A stretch of 24,298 bases of DNA from a virus (IMGVR_UViG_3300029998_000110:1-24298), one strand, 5' to 3'; positions 890 through 24,298 are shown, counted from the first letter of the stretch. Notes: generated by a model from the letters alone, not told the origin. Numbers and translations: made by a program.

Positions 890-1432
890 ATGATTCAATT
901 AGCATATCATGGTAGTCCTCATAAATTTACTGAATTTTCTTTTAAGAAAATTGGTACTGAAGGTGGTATAAGTGGTGCAGGATTTGGAATATATTTCTCC
1001 ACAAGTAAAGCAGATGCTTTAACTTATGGAGAAAATATTTATACCTGTATGTTACAACTTAAAACAAATGTTGATAATCATAAAGTAACATTTCAACCAC
1101 AAATTCTTAAAGCTATTTTAGATTCATGTGAAGCAAAAAAACGTTCATATTATGAAGTAGAATATTTTAATCATTGTCCAACTGAAGATGAAAAAGAAGA
1201 ATTTATTAAAATGATATTATCTGATTTTAATTCTGATACAGAAATTCTTGCAGATATTATTGATAAATGTTTTCATGGACAATGTGGTGATTTATTAGAA
1301 ATTACTGATAAATATGGATTTAGTCATACTCAGGATTTTGATAGTCCAGATTCACCTGATATTATGCACTATATTGTTTATGATTTAGATGCTATTACGA
1401 TACAAAATATTGAAAATTTAAAAACAATTTAA
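890..1432 (+). CDS. ADP-ribosyltransferase-fold protein (ART-PolyVal-like)
   Basis: N-terminal AYHGSPHKFTEFS..KIGT..G....GFGIYFSTSKADALTYG matches the YHG...F..F.......G.G.YF....A..Y signature; a C-terminal YIVYD strand is also present. Confidence 0.7.
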   Translation: MIQLAYHGSPHKFTEFSFKKIGTEGGISGAGFGIYFSTSKADALTYGENIYTCMLQLKTNVDNHKVTFQPQILKAILDSCEAKKRSYYEVEYFNHCPTEDEKEEFIKMILSDFNSDTEILADIIDKCFHGQCGDLLEITDKYGFSHTQDFDSPDSPDIMHYIVYDLDAITIQNIENLKTI

Positions 1433-4106: not shown

Positions 4107-4307
4107 ATGAAAAATTTTGATGTTCGACAAGCATCTGGTGATGCAACAAATGGATTTATTGCTTTTCTTAATGGGAAGAAAATTGAAGACAATCCACATA
4201 ATAAAGAAATTCCATATAAAGATTGGTGTGCTGGTTGGAGAAATGCCAAAGATGCAACAAAAGAACAAATAATATATTTTAAATGGATTTATTCAATTAA
4301 TGATTAA
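4107..4307 (+). CDS. Rmf/CrpP-fold small protein
   Basis: GFIAFLNGKKIEDNPH......DWCAGWRNA matches the G..A...G.....(C/N)P(Y/H)......W..GW..A pattern. Confidence 0.6.
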   Translation: MKNFDVRQASGDATNGFIAFLNGKKIEDNPHNKEIPYKDWCAGWRNAKDATKEQIIYFKWIYSIND

Positions 4308-11589: not shown

Positions 11590-12153
11590 ATGAAATTAAC
11601 AATTGAAATTGATGTTGAAATTGTTGACAAATTTGAACATTCAGATACTGTTGCTTGTATATATTATCCTAATGAAGGAAATGTTATTCAACTTGTTAAA
11701 GGAGAAAATACTGTTGAAGTTAGTACTTCAATACATCATGAGATTGGACACTTATTGGATTATTATCTTTCAAATGAAAAACAATCTAAAAATGTTGAAA
11801 TTAGAGAACTCAATGCAATTAATATTGGTGAATCATTAAGATTCAAAGAATCAAATTCAGAACTTAATAAAGATCTTTTACTTACTGAAGATATTCTTTT
11901 AAGACTTGGTTGTACTGAAGATATTAAAAATGTTATGAGTTATGAAGATAAAATACATAATGCCAAATATTATACACTTGATTATAAATATCATATTCGT
12001 TTTTGTGATAATAATTTTTATTTAATTCAAAGAAGAGATATTACAAAAGATGCTTATGTTTCTTCATATGTTATAAAAAAACTTATTCGTCTTGATAGAT
12101 TTGTGGAATTATATTATCAATTAACTGACAAAGAATTAAAATTAAATGGATAA
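11590..12153 (+). CDS. HExxH zincin metallopeptidase-like protein (ImmA/IrrE-like) fused to a phage LTEDILLRLG-type domain
   Basis: Beta-strands followed by TSIHHEIGHLL (HEIGH at 11737-11751) and a downstream ELNA helix. Confidence 0.65.
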   Translation: MKLTIEIDVEIVDKFEHSDTVACIYYPNEGNVIQLVKGENTVEVSTSIHHEIGHLLDYYLSNEKQSKNVEIRELNAINIGESLRFKESNSELNKDLLLTEDILLRLGCTEDIKNVMSYEDKIHNAKYYTLDYKYHIRFCDNNFYLIQRRDITKDAYVSSYVIKKLIRLDRFVELYYQLTDKELKLNG

Positions 12154-13681
12154 TTTTGAACAAGATATTGTTGATTTACGTGATAAATTATTGTGGAAAG
12201 CAAGATCATATTATAAAAATGATATATTTGCTGCTGAAGATTTAGTTCAAAATGTTATGTTGAAAATGTTAGAAAATAAAGATAAGTTTGAAGAAGGTAC
12301 AAATTTAACTGGTTGGGCTTATTTTATTTTGAAAAATACATTTATTAATGAATATAGAACATCTGTAAGACATGGGAATGAACTTGAACTTGATTCAGAT
12401 CGATGTTCAAATATTCAAACAGTTGATGCTGATAGTTATATGAGAGAAAATGATATTTTGAAACTAATAGATAAAATTGAACCTGAATATGGTGAAAGTT
12501 TCAATTTACATTTGGAAGGTTTTAAATATTATGAAATTGCTGAACAAATGGAAGTTCCAATTGGAACAGTTAAAAGTAGAATTTTTTTAGCAAGGAAAAA
12601 ATTAAAAGAACAAATTAATTTAGATGCTGATAAATTAAATCAAATTATTAATGTTGAACAAGGATATGTATATGTTCCTGAACCAGAATATAAATCAAAT
12701 ACAATAATTAAAAAAATAATTAAAAATACTATGGGAAATTATAAAGTTGATATGACTAAAAATATTAAAAATGTTCTTAAAATAATTTTTGATAAAAGTA
12801 ATAATGAATGGATAAATACCAAAGATTGTTCATTAGGTAAAATTTATTTTAATAATGGTTTTGATAATAATTGGGGTGCAATATTCAATAAATATCTTAA
12901 AACAAGTAAATTTTTTGGTATTGAAGGTGACAAACGAGTTGTTAGATTTAGATGTTATAATGCTGAAACTCCTGATTATGATATATTAGCTAAAGAAGTT
13001 ATAAAATTTCGAGAAGATAATGATGATACTTTCCATACTAAATTAAAAACAAAAACAATAACGAAAAAAGAACAACTTGAGAAAGAAGCAAATACAATAA
13101 GAATTCCAAAAATAAAAGTTGAAAAAATTGAAAAATATTTTGAAGAAAAAGATGAAAGGGAATTTGGTGAAGTAAGACATCCTGTTAAACAACAAGAAAT
13201 AAATGATGTATCTTGTGGATTTGTTGATTCAATTGAAGATGAAGAAAAAATATTTGAAGATGAAGAAAAAATATTTGAAGATGAAGAAAAAATAGAACAA
13301 AATACATATGGTGAAATTTTTAAGAATGTAGAAATTGAACAAGAAGTAGATAAAAAATTTAGGACATTTTGTGGAGATAAAACTACTGTATTTGAAGTTG
13401 CATTAAAAAATAATGAAGAAAAACTTCAAGTTGAACCTGATAAAAATTTAATCAATATTAGAAATTATTTCAATATTGATGAATCATGTTATGGTATTTA
13501 TTTTGGAAATATAATGGAATTTAAAGTTTCATTAGTACAAAGAAAAGGAAAAGTATATTTACATAATTTGGAAAATGAAAAACATGATGCAATATTATAC
13601 GATGTTTGTATTTGTGATATATTTGAAACTCCTGAAAAATTAGTTAATTCATTAATCAATAATTGTATATTTTTAAATTAA
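12146..13681 (+). CDS. ECF (group 4) sigma-70 factor with a ~350-aa C-terminal extension
   Basis: Region 2: AEDLVQNVMLK...KFEEGTNLTGWAYFILKNTFINEYR. Region 4: EGFKYYEIAEQMEVPIGTVKSRIFLARKKL. Closely resembles Bacteroidota ECFs. Confidence 0.9.
   Translation: MDNFEQDIVDLRDKLLWKARSYYKNDIFAAEDLVQNVMLKMLENKDKFEEGTNLTGWAYFILKNTFINEYRTSVRHGNELELDSDRCSNIQTVDADSYMRENDILKLIDKIEPEYGESFNLHLEGFKYYEIAEQMEVPIGTVKSRIFLARKKLKEQINLDADKLNQIINVEQGYVYVPEPEYKSNTIIKKIIKNTMGNYKVDMTKNIKNVLKIIFDKSNNEWINTKDCSLGKIYFNNGFDNNWGAIFNKYLKTSKFFGIEGDKRVVRFRCYNAETPDYDILAKEVIKFREDNDDTFHTKLKTKTITKKEQLEKEANTIRIPKIKVEKIEKYFEEKDEREFGEVRHPVKQQEINDVSCGFVDSIEDEEKIFEDEEKIFEDEEKIEQNTYGEIFKNVEIEQEVDKKFRTFCGDKTTVFEVALKNNEEKLQVEPDKNLINIRNYFNIDESCYGIYFGNIMEFKVSLVQRKGKVYLHNLENEKHDAILYDVCICDIFETPEKLVNSLINNCIFLN
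13233..13294 (+). repeat. 21-bp tandem repeat x3 (TTGAAGATGAAGAAAAAATAT) encoding EDEEKIF
   Basis: Copies at 13233-13253, 13254-13274 and 13275-13294 (last copy 20 bp). Confidence 0.92.
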
Positions 13682-14384: not shown

Positions 14385-14603
14385 ATGGAATTAAATAAAG
14401 GTGAATTTATTGAACGTGCTACAAAGTTAATTGAAGAAAATAATGAATTAGGTTTGATCATTTTATGCACAGTAAATAAGAAAAAAGTATCTACTGTTGA
14501 TGACAGACCAACTCAGATGAAAAAATTAACAGCATATGTTAAAAAAAATTTTTATACTGGTAGTTGTGATGATTTATGGAATTTTATTAAAAAACGTGAT
14601 TAA
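14385..14603 (+). CDS. Hypothetical protein
   Basis: 72-aa ORF downstream of the promoter motif. Confidence 0.65.
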   Translation: MELNKGEFIERATKLIEENNELGLIILCTVNKKKVSTVDDRPTQMKKLTAYVKKNFYTGSCDDLWNFIKKRD

Positions 14604-20256: not shown

Positions 20257-20772
20257 ATGAGTCAACAAACACAATTTAAAGAAAATTTAACTTTTAGTAC
20301 TGAATTACTTGAAGAAATTAATGTTTCAATTATTAAGAATTTACCAGAACAAGTTGGAAATGTTTTAAAAGAACTTTTAATAAAAGGTGAAGAAGATGCT
20401 GAAGAATTAAAAAGAGTTTGTGAAAATTATAACAAACTTAATGATAAATATTTGGCACAAGCAAAACAATTAAATGAATACATTGTTGAAGTTAAAAACA
20501 TAAATGCTTTGACTGAAAAATTAGTTAATCTTGAAAAAAATATTATTGAACGTGAATTAAAATTGGATAAAACAATTCTTGAAATTAAATTGGAAGAGTC
20601 TGAAAAAAGAGCAGTTGAAGCTGTGAGTATTGTTGGAATGGTTTTCAAAAGTCCTGTTTATAAGAAGAACATTTCTGAAACAGTTTTCAATACACAACAA
20701 TATGATAATAATGGAAAACAACATACGGTTAATAATGGTGGTTTTATAAGTGAAACTTCTGTAGAAGAATAA
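20257..20772 (+). CDS. Coiled-coil hypothetical protein
   Basis: 171 aa with a heptad-like E/K/L-rich centre. Confidence 0.75.
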   Translation: MSQQTQFKENLTFSTELLEEINVSIIKNLPEQVGNVLKELLIKGEEDAEELKRVCENYNKLNDKYLAQAKQLNEYIVEVKNINALTEKLVNLEKNIIERELKLDKTILEIKLEESEKRAVEAVSIVGMVFKSPVYKKNISETVFNTQQYDNNGKQHTVNNGGFISETSVEE

Positions 20773-20801
20773 AAATTCAAACTTAGTTTGAAGCAAGTTA
20801 C

Positions 20802-20918
20802 GGGGATAACATATGGTTTGTCGACAAAACCTGATGAGGAAAATTTAAAATCGTGAAACGAATTTTAAATTTTCCAGTTCCGAGTGGAACTTTGGAAGTC
20901 CGTTACTTCCTATCCCCA
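20802..20918 (+). ncRNA. Structured tRNA-like RNA with a non-canonical cloverleaf
   Basis: 7-bp acceptor GGGGATA/TATCCCC plus discriminator A; T-arm GGAAG-TCCGTTA-CTTCC; 6-bp arm AGTTCC-GAGT-GGAACT; 13+3-bp arm at 20838-20875. A GC-richer island in an intergenic gap. Confidence 0.7.
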
Positions 20919-20938
20919 CAAAATAAAATAAAAATAAA

Positions 20939-21136
20939 ATGGAAAAAATTGAATTGTTTATAAAAGTTTATGAAGATGAACTATCTGATTTGGGAAGAAT
21001 AAAAAATAAAACCAAGAAAAACGAAAAAGAAATTGAATTGATTGAACAGTTCATATCTGAATTAAAAGAAATTGGAGAAGAACATGATAAAATTCTTTTA
21101 ACAACAATTAGTACAACTAAATTATTTACTGAATAA
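20939..21136 (+). CDS. Hypothetical protein
   Basis: 65-aa ORF with TAATG coupling to the next gene. Confidence 0.65.
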   Translation: MEKIELFIKVYEDELSDLGRIKNKTKKNEKEIELIEQFISELKEIGEEHDKILLTTISTTKLFTE

Positions 21137-22468: not shown

Positions 22469-23002
22469 ATGGAAAAGAAATTCGAAACTAAAGTGATTTC
22501 TGCTTTTGCTGGTCTTGGTAAAACAACATTTGCTGAAAAAAATTCAAATCGTTGTATTGATTTAGAGTCAAGTTTATGGAGTAAAATTCCTATTATGAAA
22601 TTTTCAGAATTTGAAGAACAGGAGTTTGAAAATAATCCTGACTTTCCTCGAAATTATGTTGAACATATAAAATTACTTATTGAAGAACAAAAATATGAAT
22701 TTATTCTAATTAGTTCCAGTATTTATGTTCAAGAAGAATTAAGAAAAAATAATATTTTTTATTATTTGATATATCCAACTATTGATAAGAAGGAAGAATA
22801 TATTGAAAGATTTAAAAAACGTGGAAGTAATCAAAAATTCATTACTTGTATAACATCTAATTGGGATGAAAGAATAAAACATCATAAAGAAACAAAAAAT
22901 GGTTGTATCAATATTGAAACTGAATCAAACTTTTTAGAAGATGTTTTATATTGGTTTATTCCTTGGATTAATAATGATAAACAAGAATTTATTTTAAATT
23001 GA
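22469..23002 (+). CDS. P-loop NTPase / nucleotide-kinase-like protein, paralog 1
   Basis: VISAFAGLGKT, IDLESS, NPDFPRNY and ERFKKRG lid motif. Confidence 0.8.
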   Translation: MEKKFETKVISAFAGLGKTTFAEKNSNRCIDLESSLWSKIPIMKFSEFEEQEFENNPDFPRNYVEHIKLLIEEQKYEFILISSSIYVQEELRKNNIFYYLIYPTIDKKEEYIERFKKRGSNQKFITCITSNWDERIKHHKETKNGCINIETESNFLEDVLYWFIPWINNDKQEFILN

Positions 23003-23412: not shown

Positions 23413-23949
23413 ATGAGAAAAATAAGAAAAATAAGAAAAATTAAATTTTTTGTATTTATTCATGAATCAACAAGAAAATTATTTGAATTATATCCTAAAG
23501 AATTTCAATTAGTTGGAGTTGATAAAAGTCTTTTACAATTAGTTGATTATGACAGTTTTAAAATTGATAAAAACTGTCATATTGATTTGTTCAATAAAGA
23601 TGGAAAAGAAACTGCACATATTGTTGATTTTTGTGACTTGATTTTTATAACTCAAAGAAATGAAGATAATTTAATTTTGAGAACAATTAGAGTTCAACAT
23701 AATTGTTGTTTTGAAATTCATGAATTTTATGAAAATAATAAAATAAAATCAAGAAAACATTGTAGTAATGGTTATATTGATACGTTTGTTAAATTTGATA
23801 AAAAAGGAGAAAATACTGATTATTTTGATTGGTCAAATGATTTTGAATCAATTACATTAAAAAATGGTAAACAAATTTCAAGAGCAATTAAAAATAAAAA
23901 ATCATATGCTTTCAAAGATTTGATTGAAGAATTTAAAATTGAAAAATAA
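23413..23949 (+). CDS. Hypothetical protein with degenerate MORN/YwqK-like repeats
   Basis: EFYENNKIKS, FDKKG and LKNGK turns; the N-terminal RKI x3 arises from a 9-bp repeat at 23416-23442. Confidence 0.6.
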   Translation: MRKIRKIRKIKFFVFIHESTRKLFELYPKEFQLVGVDKSLLQLVDYDSFKIDKNCHIDLFNKDGKETAHIVDFCDLIFITQRNEDNLILRTIRVQHNCCFEIHEFYENNKIKSRKHCSNGYIDTFVKFDKKGENTDYFDWSNDFESITLKNGKQISRAIKNKKSYAFKDLIEEFKIEK

Positions 23950-23950
23950 T

Positions 23951-24298
23951 ATGAAAACAAGAATAATTAGTGCTTTTCCTGGAATGGGAAAATCTTTTGT
24001 TTGGAGTATGAATATGGAAACATGTTTAGATTCAGATTCTTCAAACTTTTCATGGTTAAAAAAACCTGATGGAACAAATTCAACTGTTAGAAATCCTGAA
24101 TTTCCTCAAAACTATATTGAACATATTAAACAAAATATTGGAAAGTATGAATTTATTTTTGTTTCTTCACATCAAGTTGTCAGAGAAGCTTTGATACAAG
24201 AATGTTTATTCTTTTATTTGGTTTATCCTGTTAAATGGATGAAAGATGTATTTATTGAACGTTATGAGAAAAGAAAAAGTCCTATACAATTTATTGAT
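23951..24298 (+). CDS. P-loop NTPase / nucleotide-kinase-like protein, paralog 2 (3'-truncated; not in ORF track)
   Basis: Manual translation: MKTRIISAFPGMGKS...CLDSDSSNFSW...NPEFPQNYIEHIK...KYEFIFVSSH...YLVYP; open to the window end. Confidence 0.85.
   Translation, partial: MKTRIISAFPGMGKSFVWSMNMETCLDSDSSNFSWLKKPDGTNSTVRNPEFPQNYIEHIKQNIGKYEFIFVSSHQVVREALIQECLFFYLVYPVKWMKDVFIERYEKRKSPIQFID

What the first reader, a model, noticed from the sequence alone, without database searches (positions are those of the whole stretch)
20802..20920. Non-canonical tRNA/tmRNA-like RNA with a five-arm fold
Seen in the sequence: a 7-bp acceptor stem (20802-20808 with 20911-20917) followed by A-C-A; a directly stacked 5-bp T-arm with a 7-nt loop TCCGTTA (canonical is TTCRANY); a 6-bp variable-type arm (20876-20891); and a 13-bp perfect plus 3-bp arm (20838-20875) whose tip can be read as G-T-GAA-A-C, a Phe-like anticodon loop. 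The 5' segment GGGGATAACATATGGTTTGTCGAC resembles the tmRNA tRNA-like-domain start (GGGG...GG..TCGAC) and can form its own hairpin. At about 117 nt it is too long for a normal tRNA and too short for tmRNA. It has no tag ORF, has G3:C70 rather than the Ala G3.U70, and has no encoded CCA. Inference: a phage tRNA mimic, perhaps a decoy for anticodon nucleases, SmpB or EF-Tu, or a Y-RNA-like tRNA-mimic domain.
Basis: partly seen in the sequence, partly recalled or inferred. Interest (0 to 1): 0.85.

Follow-up and report, generated by a model that had tools for sequence, protein, structure and literature searches.

The report
Stretched tRNA look-alike in jumbo phage
An uncultured jumbo phage carries a 119-base non-coding stretch predicted to fold like a tRNA with arms too long to read codons, and its base pairing is kept in the one relative found; it likely serves as bait for a host protein that attacks or handles tRNA, which is untested.

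Summary
The element is real. Window 20802-20920 folds into a five-helix tRNA-shaped RNA (z -6.9) and is missed by ARAGORN and Rfam. One true homolog was found, in a syntenic, closely related phage (L204). Of 43 pairs, 9 changed on both sides, 4 on one side, and 1 broke (n=2). It is not a tmRNA piece: G3-C70 holds in both copies, and the 'TCGAC' motif is not conserved. It becomes GUGCAC, so that loop stays self-complementary (GUCGAC/GUGCAC), a possible kissing-loop dimer site. It cannot decode: the anticodon-position arm has 17 bp, and U55, A58 and G18G19 are missing. The missing CCA is normal here, since 2 of 28 tRNA calls in related phages encode it. The topology is that of a class II (Leu/Ser-type) tRNA and of phage T5 RNA1, a known kind of phage RNA of unknown function. 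A more distant relative has a 262-nt tRNA-framed element with canonical D and T arms in the same slot. Best reading: a processed, non-decoding tRNA mimic acting as bait for a host tRNA-targeting protein (0.4). Expression is untested. New variant of a known kind.

The parts
20802..20920 (+). tRNA-shaped non-coding RNA gene: 117 nt to the discriminator, plus C-A
   Evidence: Fold z -6.9. Homolog L204:374-496(-), E 7.5e-21. G-U wobbles in the homolog point to the + strand. Stop codons in 2 of 3 + frames, and the third has no annotated start-to-stop ORF.
20802..20808 (+). P1 acceptor stem, 5' strand (pairs with 20911-20917); G1-C72, G3-C70
   Evidence: 7 of 7 pairs in both copies; pair 2:71 is G-C versus A-U.
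20810..20836 (+). P2, arm in the D-arm position: 3 bp, 2x2 internal loop, 5 bp, 7-nt loop; no conserved G18G19
   Evidence: 8 of 8 pairs complementary in both copies: 2 compensatory, 2 one-sided. Weakly predicted in the homolog, 0.17-0.32.
20820..20825 (+). Self-complementary hexamer GUCGAC in the P2 loop (GUGCAC in the homolog); candidate kissing-loop dimer site (inferred)
   Evidence: 13 of 189 possible double changes keep a palindrome; 3.7% of random 7-nt loops hold one. Self-pairing is the strongest loop-loop duplex in both copies. An AGUCGACAA loop was used as a homotypic kissing loop in PMC11567899 (passages).
20838..20875 (+). P3, arm in the anticodon position: 17 bp with one bulged A and a U-GAA-A tip; proximal stem rewritten between copies, tip invariant
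   Evidence: 6 compensatory, 2 one-sided and 1 broken of 17 pairs. An 18-nt identical run covers the tip, from 20849.
20876..20891 (+). P4, variable-arm-like hairpin followed by a UU linker
   Evidence: 5 of 5 counted pairs invariant, loop differs. Model R2 aligns this part to the variable arms of T4 and T5 tRNA-Ser and tRNA-Leu.
20894..20910 (+). P5, T-like arm stacked on the acceptor; G53-C61, U54, C56, G57 kept; U55 replaced by C and A58 by U
   Evidence: Inside a 29-nt identical run. All 28 ARAGORN tRNA calls in related phages have U55 and A58.
20911..20920 (+). Acceptor 3' strand, discriminator (A here, G in the homolog) and C-A
   Evidence: 27 of 28 tRNA calls in related phages have C after the discriminator; 2 of 28 encode CCA.
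20257..20772 (+). Upstream 171-aa ORF of unknown function; the RNA starts 29 nt after its stop
   Evidence: Homolog upstream in L204 (66% identity), separated from the RNA there by another ORF. A 31% homolog in L004 has no such RNA.
20939..21136 (+). Downstream 65-aa ORF of unknown function, linked to a tRNA-shaped element in 3 of 3 phages examined
   Evidence: L204 homolog 68% identical. G004 homolog by hhalign, E 1.9e-8. No Pfam, PHROG or informative Atlas match.

Best explanation
This is a conserved phage non-coding element, predicted to fold like a class II (Leu/Ser-type) tRNA with rebuilt D and anticodon arms; it is likely cut out of the phage operon transcript by host tRNA-processing enzymes and likely acts as non-decoding bait for a host tRNA-targeting protein, possibly as a loop-loop dimer.

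Shown: the helices, their conservation in one homolog, the non-coding position, and the loss of the features needed for decoding and for Ala or Leu charging.

Inferred: (1) transcription with the flanking genes; (2) 5' cutting by RNase P, 3' trimming and CCA addition; (3) the rewritable A/U stem of P3 is a spacer that presents an invariant GAA-containing loop, while the invariant variable arm, T arm and acceptor present the 'top half' of a tRNA; (4) these surfaces occupy a host anticodon nuclease or another tRNA-modifying defence enzyme; (5) dimerisation through the palindromic loop raises avidity.

Confidence that it is a selected tRNA-derived, non-decoding RNA is about 0.8. Confidence in the bait mechanism is about 0.4.
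For: - Fold z -6.9.
- 13 of 14 varying pairs keep pairing; 3 of 500 shuffles reach the observed values.
- Identical runs of 29 and 18 nt cover P4/P5/acceptor and the P3 tip, while four-fold sites of three neighbouring genes are 35 of 50 identical.
- With model R2 the top 3 hits in the T4 tRNA region are tRNA-Ser, -Gly and -Leu. In T5, tRNA-Ser and tRNA-Leu rank first and third. In Lak-A1 the only hit is a long-variable-arm tRNA-like gene.
- The 3' end follows the tRNA genes of related phages.
- G004 has, in the same slot, a 262-nt element with a 7-bp acceptor, a D arm with GG, a canonical T arm and ACA. The chance rate for that descriptor in the slot is about 7e-4.
- T5 RNA1 folds with the same arm order.
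- Acceptor pair 2:71 and the discriminator differ between copies, which argues against a fixed charging identity.
- No TAnnTTTG promoter motif lies within 400 nt upstream in either copy, and no terminator was found. This fits release by processing.
Against: - Only two distinct sequences. The alignment was fitted to the structure, and the A/U tracts of P3 make its register ambiguous (a slide of -1 still gives 5 two-sided changes).
- No expression data. No target protein was identified, and nothing found here ties the RNA to a defence system.
- The T-loop lacks U55 and A58 and there is no G18G19, so a tRNA elbow may not form and RNase P cutting is uncertain.
- The G004 element is not detectably homologous in sequence (11.8 bits, E 2.9 and 0.39) and folds only weakly (z -1.7, 13 of 200 shuffles).
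- No match in 11 related phage records, so it is narrow or fast-evolving.
- The palindrome rests on one double change, noticed after the fact.
- Constant linkage to the downstream gene also fits a cis role.
Confidence: 0.4

Rival explanations
1. A cis-acting processing or stability element. The tRNA-like fold, or the long A/U arm as an RNase III-type site, punctuates the polycistronic mRNA and sets the 5' end of the message for the 65-aa gene.
For: In 3 of 3 phages a tRNA-shaped element ends 18, 29 and 20 nt before the same ORF family, while the upstream gene varies. No promoter or terminator of its own. A free-standing intergenic hairpin with the same outer 9 bp and U-GAA-A tip as P3 occurs in G004 (L251:7035-7071).
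Against: A cutting signal would not need an invariant P3 tip or a preserved palindrome. The T-loop, which RNase P reads (recalled), is the part that has drifted. Long hairpins are common in this clade (127 counted in about 1.2 Mb, overlapping loci included; 4 others with GGAAAA...TTTTCC ends), so the P3 likeness may be chance.
Confidence: 0.25
2. A structural RNA that oligomerises through the palindromic loop and scaffolds a phage or host protein (prohead-RNA-like or Y-RNA-like). The tRNA frame serves only for maturation and stability.
For: Self-complementary loop kept through a CG-to-GC double change. Both hexamers are named as kissing-loop sequences in PMC11567899 (passages). Long rigid arm of conserved length, 17 versus 18 pair positions.
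Against: No Ro60 or packaging gene among 39 window proteins (the record is about 10% of the genome). P2 is weakly formed in the homolog. n=2.
Confidence: 0.1
3. A precursor of a working tRNA (for example tRNA-Phe, GAA) whose extra sequence is an intron of the kind reported in Lak megaphages, or an aberrant tRNA that still decodes.
For: The tip reads G-U-GAA-A-C with U33 and purine 37 and is invariant. Lak phages carry tRNAs with 'enigmatic' introns (PMC6784885, passages), and the topoisomerase's best named hits are Lak phages.
Against: Two separate internal segments would have to be removed, and U8, G18G19, U55 and A58 would still be missing. Positions 32 and 38 are a G-C pair. Rfam tRNA does not appear at E<=10 on 201 nt.
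Confidence: 0.07
4. A tmRNA tRNA-like domain without a message, like the TLD-only gene of mycobacteriophage DS6A, that titrates SmpB.
For: GGGG start and a GG...TCGAC segment in this copy. TLD-only phage genes exist, and a similar molecule inhibits tmRNA, perhaps by titrating SmpB (PMC4131195, passages). Related phages carry tmRNAs.
Against: G3-C70 in both copies; TCGAC not conserved; a variable-arm hairpin replaces the short GAC linker seen in the clade's tmRNAs; non-canonical T-loop; no tmRNA model hit. The clade's tmRNAs keep G3.U70 and TTCGA loops.
Confidence: 0.05
5. A decaying tRNA pseudogene, or terminator-like hairpins with no function as a unit.
For: Degenerate tRNA-like pieces occur in relatives (L311:5423-5506; L264:2722-2758). 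Not found in 11 related records.
Against: 13 of 14 varying pairs keep pairing across three helices, including the closing stem. Long invariant runs. Sharp conservation boundaries.
Confidence: 0.05

Closest known systems
Phage T5 RNA1 and RNA2 (NC_005859 30501-30644 and 32959-33083), annotated 'tRNA-like stable RNA with unknown functions'
   Same: RNA1 folds with the same arm order: acceptor, D-position arm, greatly extended anticodon-position arm, 6-bp variable arm, 2-nt linker, T arm. Similar size.
   Different: T5 RNA1 keeps a D loop with GG and a UUCAA T-loop, scores 24 bits on Rfam tRNA, and lies in a tRNA cluster. This RNA has a rebuilt D arm with a palindromic loop, a UCCGUUA loop, no Rfam tRNA score and no tRNA neighbour. 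No sequence homology (8.9 bits, E 0.4).
Phage T4 species 1 RNA (rnaC, 139 nt) and species 2 RNA (rnaD, 119 nt)
   Same: rnaC folds as an acceptor-like stem and T arm enclosing long arms. Both are late RNAs of unknown function, checked by northern blot (PMC9697503, passages).
   Different: rnaC has a canonical T-loop and two interior arms rather than three. It is not among the 20 R2 matches at E<=10 in that region.
Class II tRNAs (Leu, Ser, Tyr; Rfam RF00005)
   Same: 7/5 acceptor and T domain, G53-C61, long variable arm, 2-nt linker, and a discriminator-C end as in the clade's tRNA genes.
   Different: No U8, G18G19, U55 or A58; 17-bp arm in the anticodon position; discriminator A versus G between copies. 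Leucine identity needs A73, A15-U48 and G18G19 (PMC9976931 and PMC12360207, passages).
tRNAs with 'enigmatic' introns in Lak megaphages (Devoto et al. 2019, PMC6784885)
   Same: Oversized tRNA-framed genes in large phages; Lak is the best named topoisomerase match (39%).
   Different: Those are recognised by tRNAscan once an insert is allowed. Here removing inserts would not restore a canonical tRNA.
TLD-only tmRNA of mycobacteriophage DS6A and other CDS-less tmRNAs (PMC4131195, PMC11915505)
   Same: Short, message-less phage RNA with an acceptor and a T arm.
   Different: No G3.U70, no conserved tmRNA 5' motif, extra variable arm, no tmRNA model hit.
Allo-tRNAs and irregular five-stem tRNA-like RNAs (reviewed in PMC7609411)
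   Same: Irregular cloverleaf; that review mentions possible five-stem junctions and species that were not aminoacylated (passages).
   Different: Those are 8/4 or 9/3; this is 7/5, with much longer interior arms.

Membership tests
tmRNA / TLD-only tmRNA (DS6A type) | G3.U70 alanine identity pair | tested here: not met
   G3-C70 in both copies; the clade's tmRNAs keep G3.U70.
tmRNA / TLD-only tmRNA (DS6A type) | Conserved 5' GG...GAC motif and short GAC linker before the T stem | tested here: not met
   TCGAC becomes TGCAC in L204; a hairpin and UU precede the T stem.
tmRNA / TLD-only tmRNA (DS6A type) | Hit to Rfam tmRNA models or ARAGORN; tag frame for full tmRNA | tested here: not met
   A half-threshold ARAGORN tmRNA call in the window is absent in L204.
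tmRNA / TLD-only tmRNA (DS6A type) | Binds SmpB | not testable with these tools
   Needs a binding assay.
Canonical class II tRNA (RF00005) | 7-bp acceptor stacked on a 5-bp T stem closed by G53-C61 | tested here: met
Canonical class II tRNA (RF00005) | Long variable arm followed by a short linker | tested here: met
Canonical class II tRNA (RF00005) | U8 and D-loop G18G19; T-loop U55 and A58 | tested here: not met
   A at position 8, GG not conserved; loop UCCGUUA against 28 of 28 clade tRNA calls with U55 and A58.
Canonical class II tRNA (RF00005) | 5-bp anticodon stem with a 7-nt open loop | tested here: not met
   17-bp arm; positions 32 and 38 pair.
Canonical class II tRNA (RF00005) | Aminoacylated and decodes | not testable with these tools
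   Needs assays.
Phage tRNA-like stable RNAs (T5 RNA1/RNA2, T4 rnaC) as a kind | tRNA acceptor/T module enclosing enlarged, non-decoding arms | tested here: met
Phage tRNA-like stable RNAs (T5 RNA1/RNA2, T4 rnaC) as a kind | Accumulates as a discrete stable RNA in infection | not testable with these tools
   No reads were examined.
Phage tRNA-like stable RNAs (T5 RNA1/RNA2, T4 rnaC) as a kind | Lies in a tRNA gene cluster | tested here: not met
   0 tRNAs in the window and in the overlapping 28-kb record.
T5 RNA1 or T4 rnaC as sequence families | Detectable sequence or model homology | tested here: not met
Lak-type intron-containing tRNA | Canonical tRNA restored when one insert is removed | tested here: not met
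   conserved tertiary bases are missing outside any insert.
Bacterial/phage Y RNA | Ro60 gene nearby (recalled) | tested here: inconclusive
   None among 39 window proteins; the record is about 10% complete.
Allo-tRNA | 8/4 or 9/3 acceptor domain | tested here: not met
   7/5 in both copies; definition from PMC7609411.
Hammerhead ribozyme | Conserved CUGAUGA and GAAA core around stem II (recalled) | tested here: not met
   CTGATGAG at 20831-20838 is not kept in L204; no Rfam hit.

The most novel reading that the evidence does not exclude
A size-variable (117 to 262 nt) family of tRNA-framed phage RNAs that gave up the D/T elbow and gained a palindromic kissing loop. It would form a homodimer that displays two invariant GAA anticodon-like loops on long spacer arms, acting as a bivalent RNA decoy against tRNA-cleaving defence enzymes of Bacteroidota: an RNA-only counter-defence that does not replace a tRNA.
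Probability: 0.15. Interest if true: 0.85.

Novelty: new variant of a known kind. Interest (0 to 1): 0.5.

Why it matters
T4 and T5 have carried annotated tRNA-like stable RNAs of unknown function for decades, and this is another independent design that ARAGORN and Rfam miss. The comparison of its two copies separates rewritable spacer stems from invariant surfaces (the P3 tip, variable arm and T arm) and shows a preserved self-complementary loop, so it gives specific mutations to test. If it proves to be a dimeric decoy, it would give this class of RNAs a function and add an RNA-based counter-defence. If it is a processing element, it is a modest annotation gain.

Tried and rejected
Homolog searches:
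- blastn of INPHARED phages: 3 records with 19-23-nt matches only. The G004 element gave only short matches in 39 records.
- IMG/VR pattern scans. One search gave 87 loci and no homolog (nhmmer over all loci, the 45 best folds printed). One search gave 0. One search gave 33 loci, none by inspection; 7 of the 33 were also run with R2. One search gave 10 loci, best E 0.043 with a different layout.
- Metagenome scan: 57 loci, of which 1 is an identical copy (L184, 99.98% over 6 kb), 1 is the homolog (L204) and 55 are chance.
- GTDB pattern scan: 8 loci, 0 hits.
- Protein-guided: 1 locus from the upstream ORF, without the RNA; 0 confirmed of 564 candidates for the downstream ORF.
- Models on related phage records: R1 0 of 12; R2 1 of 12, the window itself. 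Unfiltered R2 on 11 loci around the syntenic gene gave nothing significant.
- R2 on 151 genomes of the phylum of a Bacteroidaceae MAG: 0.

Readings rejected:
- Hammerhead, box C motif and tmRNA 5' motif: not conserved in the homolog.
- Retron or ssDNA structure: considered because this copy has only Watson-Crick pairs; dropped because the homolog has G-U wobbles on the + strand and no reverse transcriptase was found among 39 proteins.
- Upstream hairpin 20776-20792: not conserved.
- L271:18512-18631: the sequence reads like coding DNA (frame not checked).
- T5 RNAX segment (16.6 bits, E 0.003): its MFE fold differs and it has no T-loop, so it is not counted as a homolog.
- Intramolecular pseudoknots: no covarying partner for the P2 loop; P3 tip with T-loop gives only -2.2 kcal/mol.

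Literature: nine searches found no description of this RNA. The library lacks most subscription and older papers, including the original T4 and T5 work. For the viral structured-RNA catalogue PMC10690425, 3 of 6 held supplement files were searched for four motifs with no hit; files 1, 2 and 4 and three larger files were not seen, so it could be listed there.

Full report
1. Setting. The window is a 24.3-kb virus record, estimated 10% complete, about 22% GC, with its long ORFs on the + strand. It encodes a type II topoisomerase subunit and a sigma-70-type factor. The topoisomerase's best named hits are Prevotella Lak phages (39%), then phage PAU and Tenacibaculum phages. Unnamed relatives lie on contigs up to 208 kb. 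None of 34 ORFs has a Shine-Dalgarno core and 22 of 34 have A at -3, which I associate with Bacteroidota hosts (recalled). Host and 'jumbo' size are therefore inferred. The element lies in the 166-nt gap between a 171-aa and a 65-aa ORF.

2. 20802-20920 folds into five helices at -47.5 kcal/mol, z -6.9, with 0 of 200 shuffles as stable. It is the most stable 119-nt window in the record. With 60 nt of flank the pair probabilities are 0.8-1.0, apart from one bulge-register pair. ARAGORN finds nothing. Rfam finds nothing relevant on the whole window (2 chance matches) or on 201 nt around it (13 matches, all far below gathering score, none a tRNA or tmRNA). It is single-copy in the record.

3. One homolog, with covariation. 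An exact scan for the 17-nt T-like arm gave 57 metagenome loci: one identical copy, one homolog (L204:374-496, - strand, E 7.5e-21) and 55 chance matches. L204 is syntenic, with homologs of the 142-, 171-, 65- and 88-aa ORFs at 66-73% identity. Similarity starts at G1 and ends just after N-C-A. Of 43 pairs, 29 are unchanged, 9 changed on both sides, 4 changed to G-U and 1 broke; 3 of 500 shuffles match this. The caveats are real: n=2, the alignment is fitted to the structure, and P3's A/U tracts blur the register. The wobbles point to the + strand. Change is uneven. The proximal P3 stem and P2b are rewritten, while runs of 29 nt (P4 3' strand to acceptor) and 18 nt (P3 tip) are identical, against 35 of 50 identity at four-fold sites of three neighbouring genes. 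No other homolog turned up (see Tried and rejected).

4. Not tmRNA. Both copies have G3-C70. The 'GG...TCGAC' likeness is lost in L204. Three related phages carry genuine permuted tmRNAs above the Rfam cut-off, with G3.U70, TTCGA loops, a GAC linker and tag frames, so the clade's tmRNA looks quite different. TLD-only phage tmRNA is known from DS6A (PMC4131195, passages; PMC11915505, passages and section 12), but this RNA fails its defining features.

5. tRNA-shaped but non-decoding. The order acceptor, arm, arm, 5-6-bp arm, UU, T arm is that of class II tRNAs. The two-sequence model R2 ranks Ser and Leu tRNAs at or near the top in the T4 and T5 tRNA regions, and its one hit in Lak-A1 is a long-variable-arm tRNA-like gene (all weak scores). 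The lack of CCA is the clade's habit: of 28 ARAGORN tRNA calls in related phages, 2 encode CCA and 27 have C after the discriminator (the 28 include a doubtful Tyr call and one undetermined call). All 28 have U55 and A58, whereas this RNA has C and U there, no U8 and no conserved G18G19. Those bases form the tRNA elbow and are needed for leucine identity (PMC12360207 and PMC9976931, passages). The arm in the anticodon position is 17 bp, its 32 and 38 positions pair, and the discriminator and pair 2:71 differ between copies. Decoding and a fixed charging identity are therefore unlikely (inference).

6. A larger counterpart. G004 (topoisomerase 77%) has, directly before the homolog of the 65-aa ORF (hhalign E 1.9e-8), a 262-nt element at L251:4484-4745. 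It has a 7-bp acceptor, U8-A9, a D arm with GG, a canonical T arm and the same A-C-A end. Its interior holds an arm of 3 bp, a 2x2 loop and a stem like P2, then a long arm, then a short variable arm. A T-arm-plus-acceptor descriptor gave 6 hits in one shuffle of 1.2 Mb, about 7e-4 for that slot. Against this, its R2 score is not significant and its fold has z -1.7, so homology rests on position and layout only. If homologous, the window RNA is a reduced form that lost the D arm and, with it, the constraint on U55 and A58 (inference).

7. The palindromic loop. The P2 loop is GUCGAC-A here and GUGCAC-A in L204. Both hexamers are self-complementary; 13 of 189 possible double changes would keep a palindrome, and 3.7% of random loops have one. 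Self-pairing is the strongest loop-loop duplex in both copies, and no covarying partner exists inside the molecule. PMC11567899 used AGUCGACAA as a homotypic kissing loop and names GUGCAC as an HIV-1 dimerisation loop (passages). This is one event noticed after the fact, and P2 is weakly folded in L204, so it is a lead only.

8. How it most likely works. Shown: selected structure, non-coding position, tRNA frame, and loss of decoding features. Inferred: it is transcribed with its neighbours, since no TAnnTTTG motif lies within 400 nt upstream and no terminator was found. It is released by tRNA-processing enzymes and given CCA. It presents an invariant GAA-tipped loop on a rewritable spacer together with an invariant tRNA 'top half', which would fit binding by a host tRNA-targeting protein, most usefully a defence nuclease or modifier; and it may dimerise. 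I put this at 0.4. The main rival is a cis processing element for the downstream gene (0.25), because the link to that gene is constant in 3 of 3 phages and a P3-like hairpin stands alone in G004. Lesser rivals are a structural oligomer (0.1), an intron-bearing or aberrant tRNA-Phe (0.07), an SmpB decoy (0.05) and a relic (0.05). No expression data were examined, so transcription itself is open.

9. What is known. T5 RNA1 and RNA2 are annotated 'tRNA-like stable RNA with unknown functions', and RNA1 folds with the same arm order. T4 rnaC and rnaD are late RNAs of unknown function (PMC9697503 and PMC12685909, passages). Lak phages have oversized tRNAs (PMC6784885, passages). Irregular five-stem tRNA-like RNAs are mentioned in PMC7609411 (passages). 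PMC12619734 (passages) added nothing on this RNA. So it works like a member of the phage tRNA-like stable RNA kind, but it is not a sequence member of any of those families and fails membership of tRNA, tmRNA and allo-tRNA. Earlier unchecked notes of this scan describe several other phage tRNA look-alikes, one with a palindromic loop; none matched this sequence. Nine literature searches found no description of it, and the supplements of PMC10690425 (passages) were only partly searchable.

10. Verdict. A real, selected, non-decoding tRNA-shaped RNA; a new variant of a known but unexplained kind. Its own features are a rebuilt D arm with a preserved palindrome, a degenerate yet invariant T-loop, and a possible 262-nt counterpart. 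Narrow distribution, two sequences and no expression data cap the score. Interest 0.5.

Noticed in passing
L277:9942-10148 (+), L307:3684-3980 (-), L275:7985-8221 (+): Three related phage records (G009, G007, G011) carry permuted, two-piece tmRNA genes above the Rfam cut-off, with tags GNNYEMRAAA, GKVINLFGNDVKVAA and an unusually long 26-residue tag; two follow a tRNA gene directly.
   Followed up: partly
L251:4484-4747 (+): 262-nt tRNA-framed element in G004 with canonical D and T arms and a large interior that overlaps a possible 38-codon ORF (read by eye); missed by default ARAGORN and by Rfam.
   Followed up: partly
L251:7035-7071 (+): Free-standing intergenic hairpin in G004 with the same outer 9 bp and U-GAA-A tip as arm P3, upstream of an ORF that looks like thymidylate synthase (recalled, not searched).
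   Followed up: partly
L264:2722-2758 (-): Perfect 12-bp minihelix with a canonical T-loop followed by ACACCA beside the tRNA cluster of G002; ARAGORN calls it a poorly paired tRNA-Tyr.
   Followed up: no
L311:5423-5506 (+): Degenerate tRNA-like gene in G008 with a canonical T arm, missed by ARAGORN and by the Rfam gathering score.
   Followed up: no
L322:14296-14504 (-), phage T5 RNAX: The annotated 719-nt RNAX holds an unannotated Rfam tRNA match (14433-14504, 38 bits) followed by a multi-arm segment that scores weakly with model R2.
   Followed up: partly
window 20776-20792: 7-bp hairpin just upstream of the element; not conserved in L204.
   Followed up: yes
window 4107-4307: 66-aa ORF with a weak match to ribosome modulation factor (Pfam RMF, E 1.3e-5, below the curated cut-off), a possible phage ribosome-hibernation factor.
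   Followed up: no
window 890-1432 and 12146-13681: An ART-PolyVal ADP-ribosyltransferase domain protein, and a 511-aa protein with an N-terminal sigma-70 domain and a long unassigned C-terminal part.
   Followed up: no
window 22469-23002 and 23924-24298: Two similar-looking ORFs share a 72-nt repeat at 72% identity; the first matches phrog_4182.
   Followed up: no
L326:1501-1603 (-), Lak-A1: Long-variable-arm tRNA-like gene with an 8-bp acceptor and a 7-bp anticodon-position stem.
   Followed up: no
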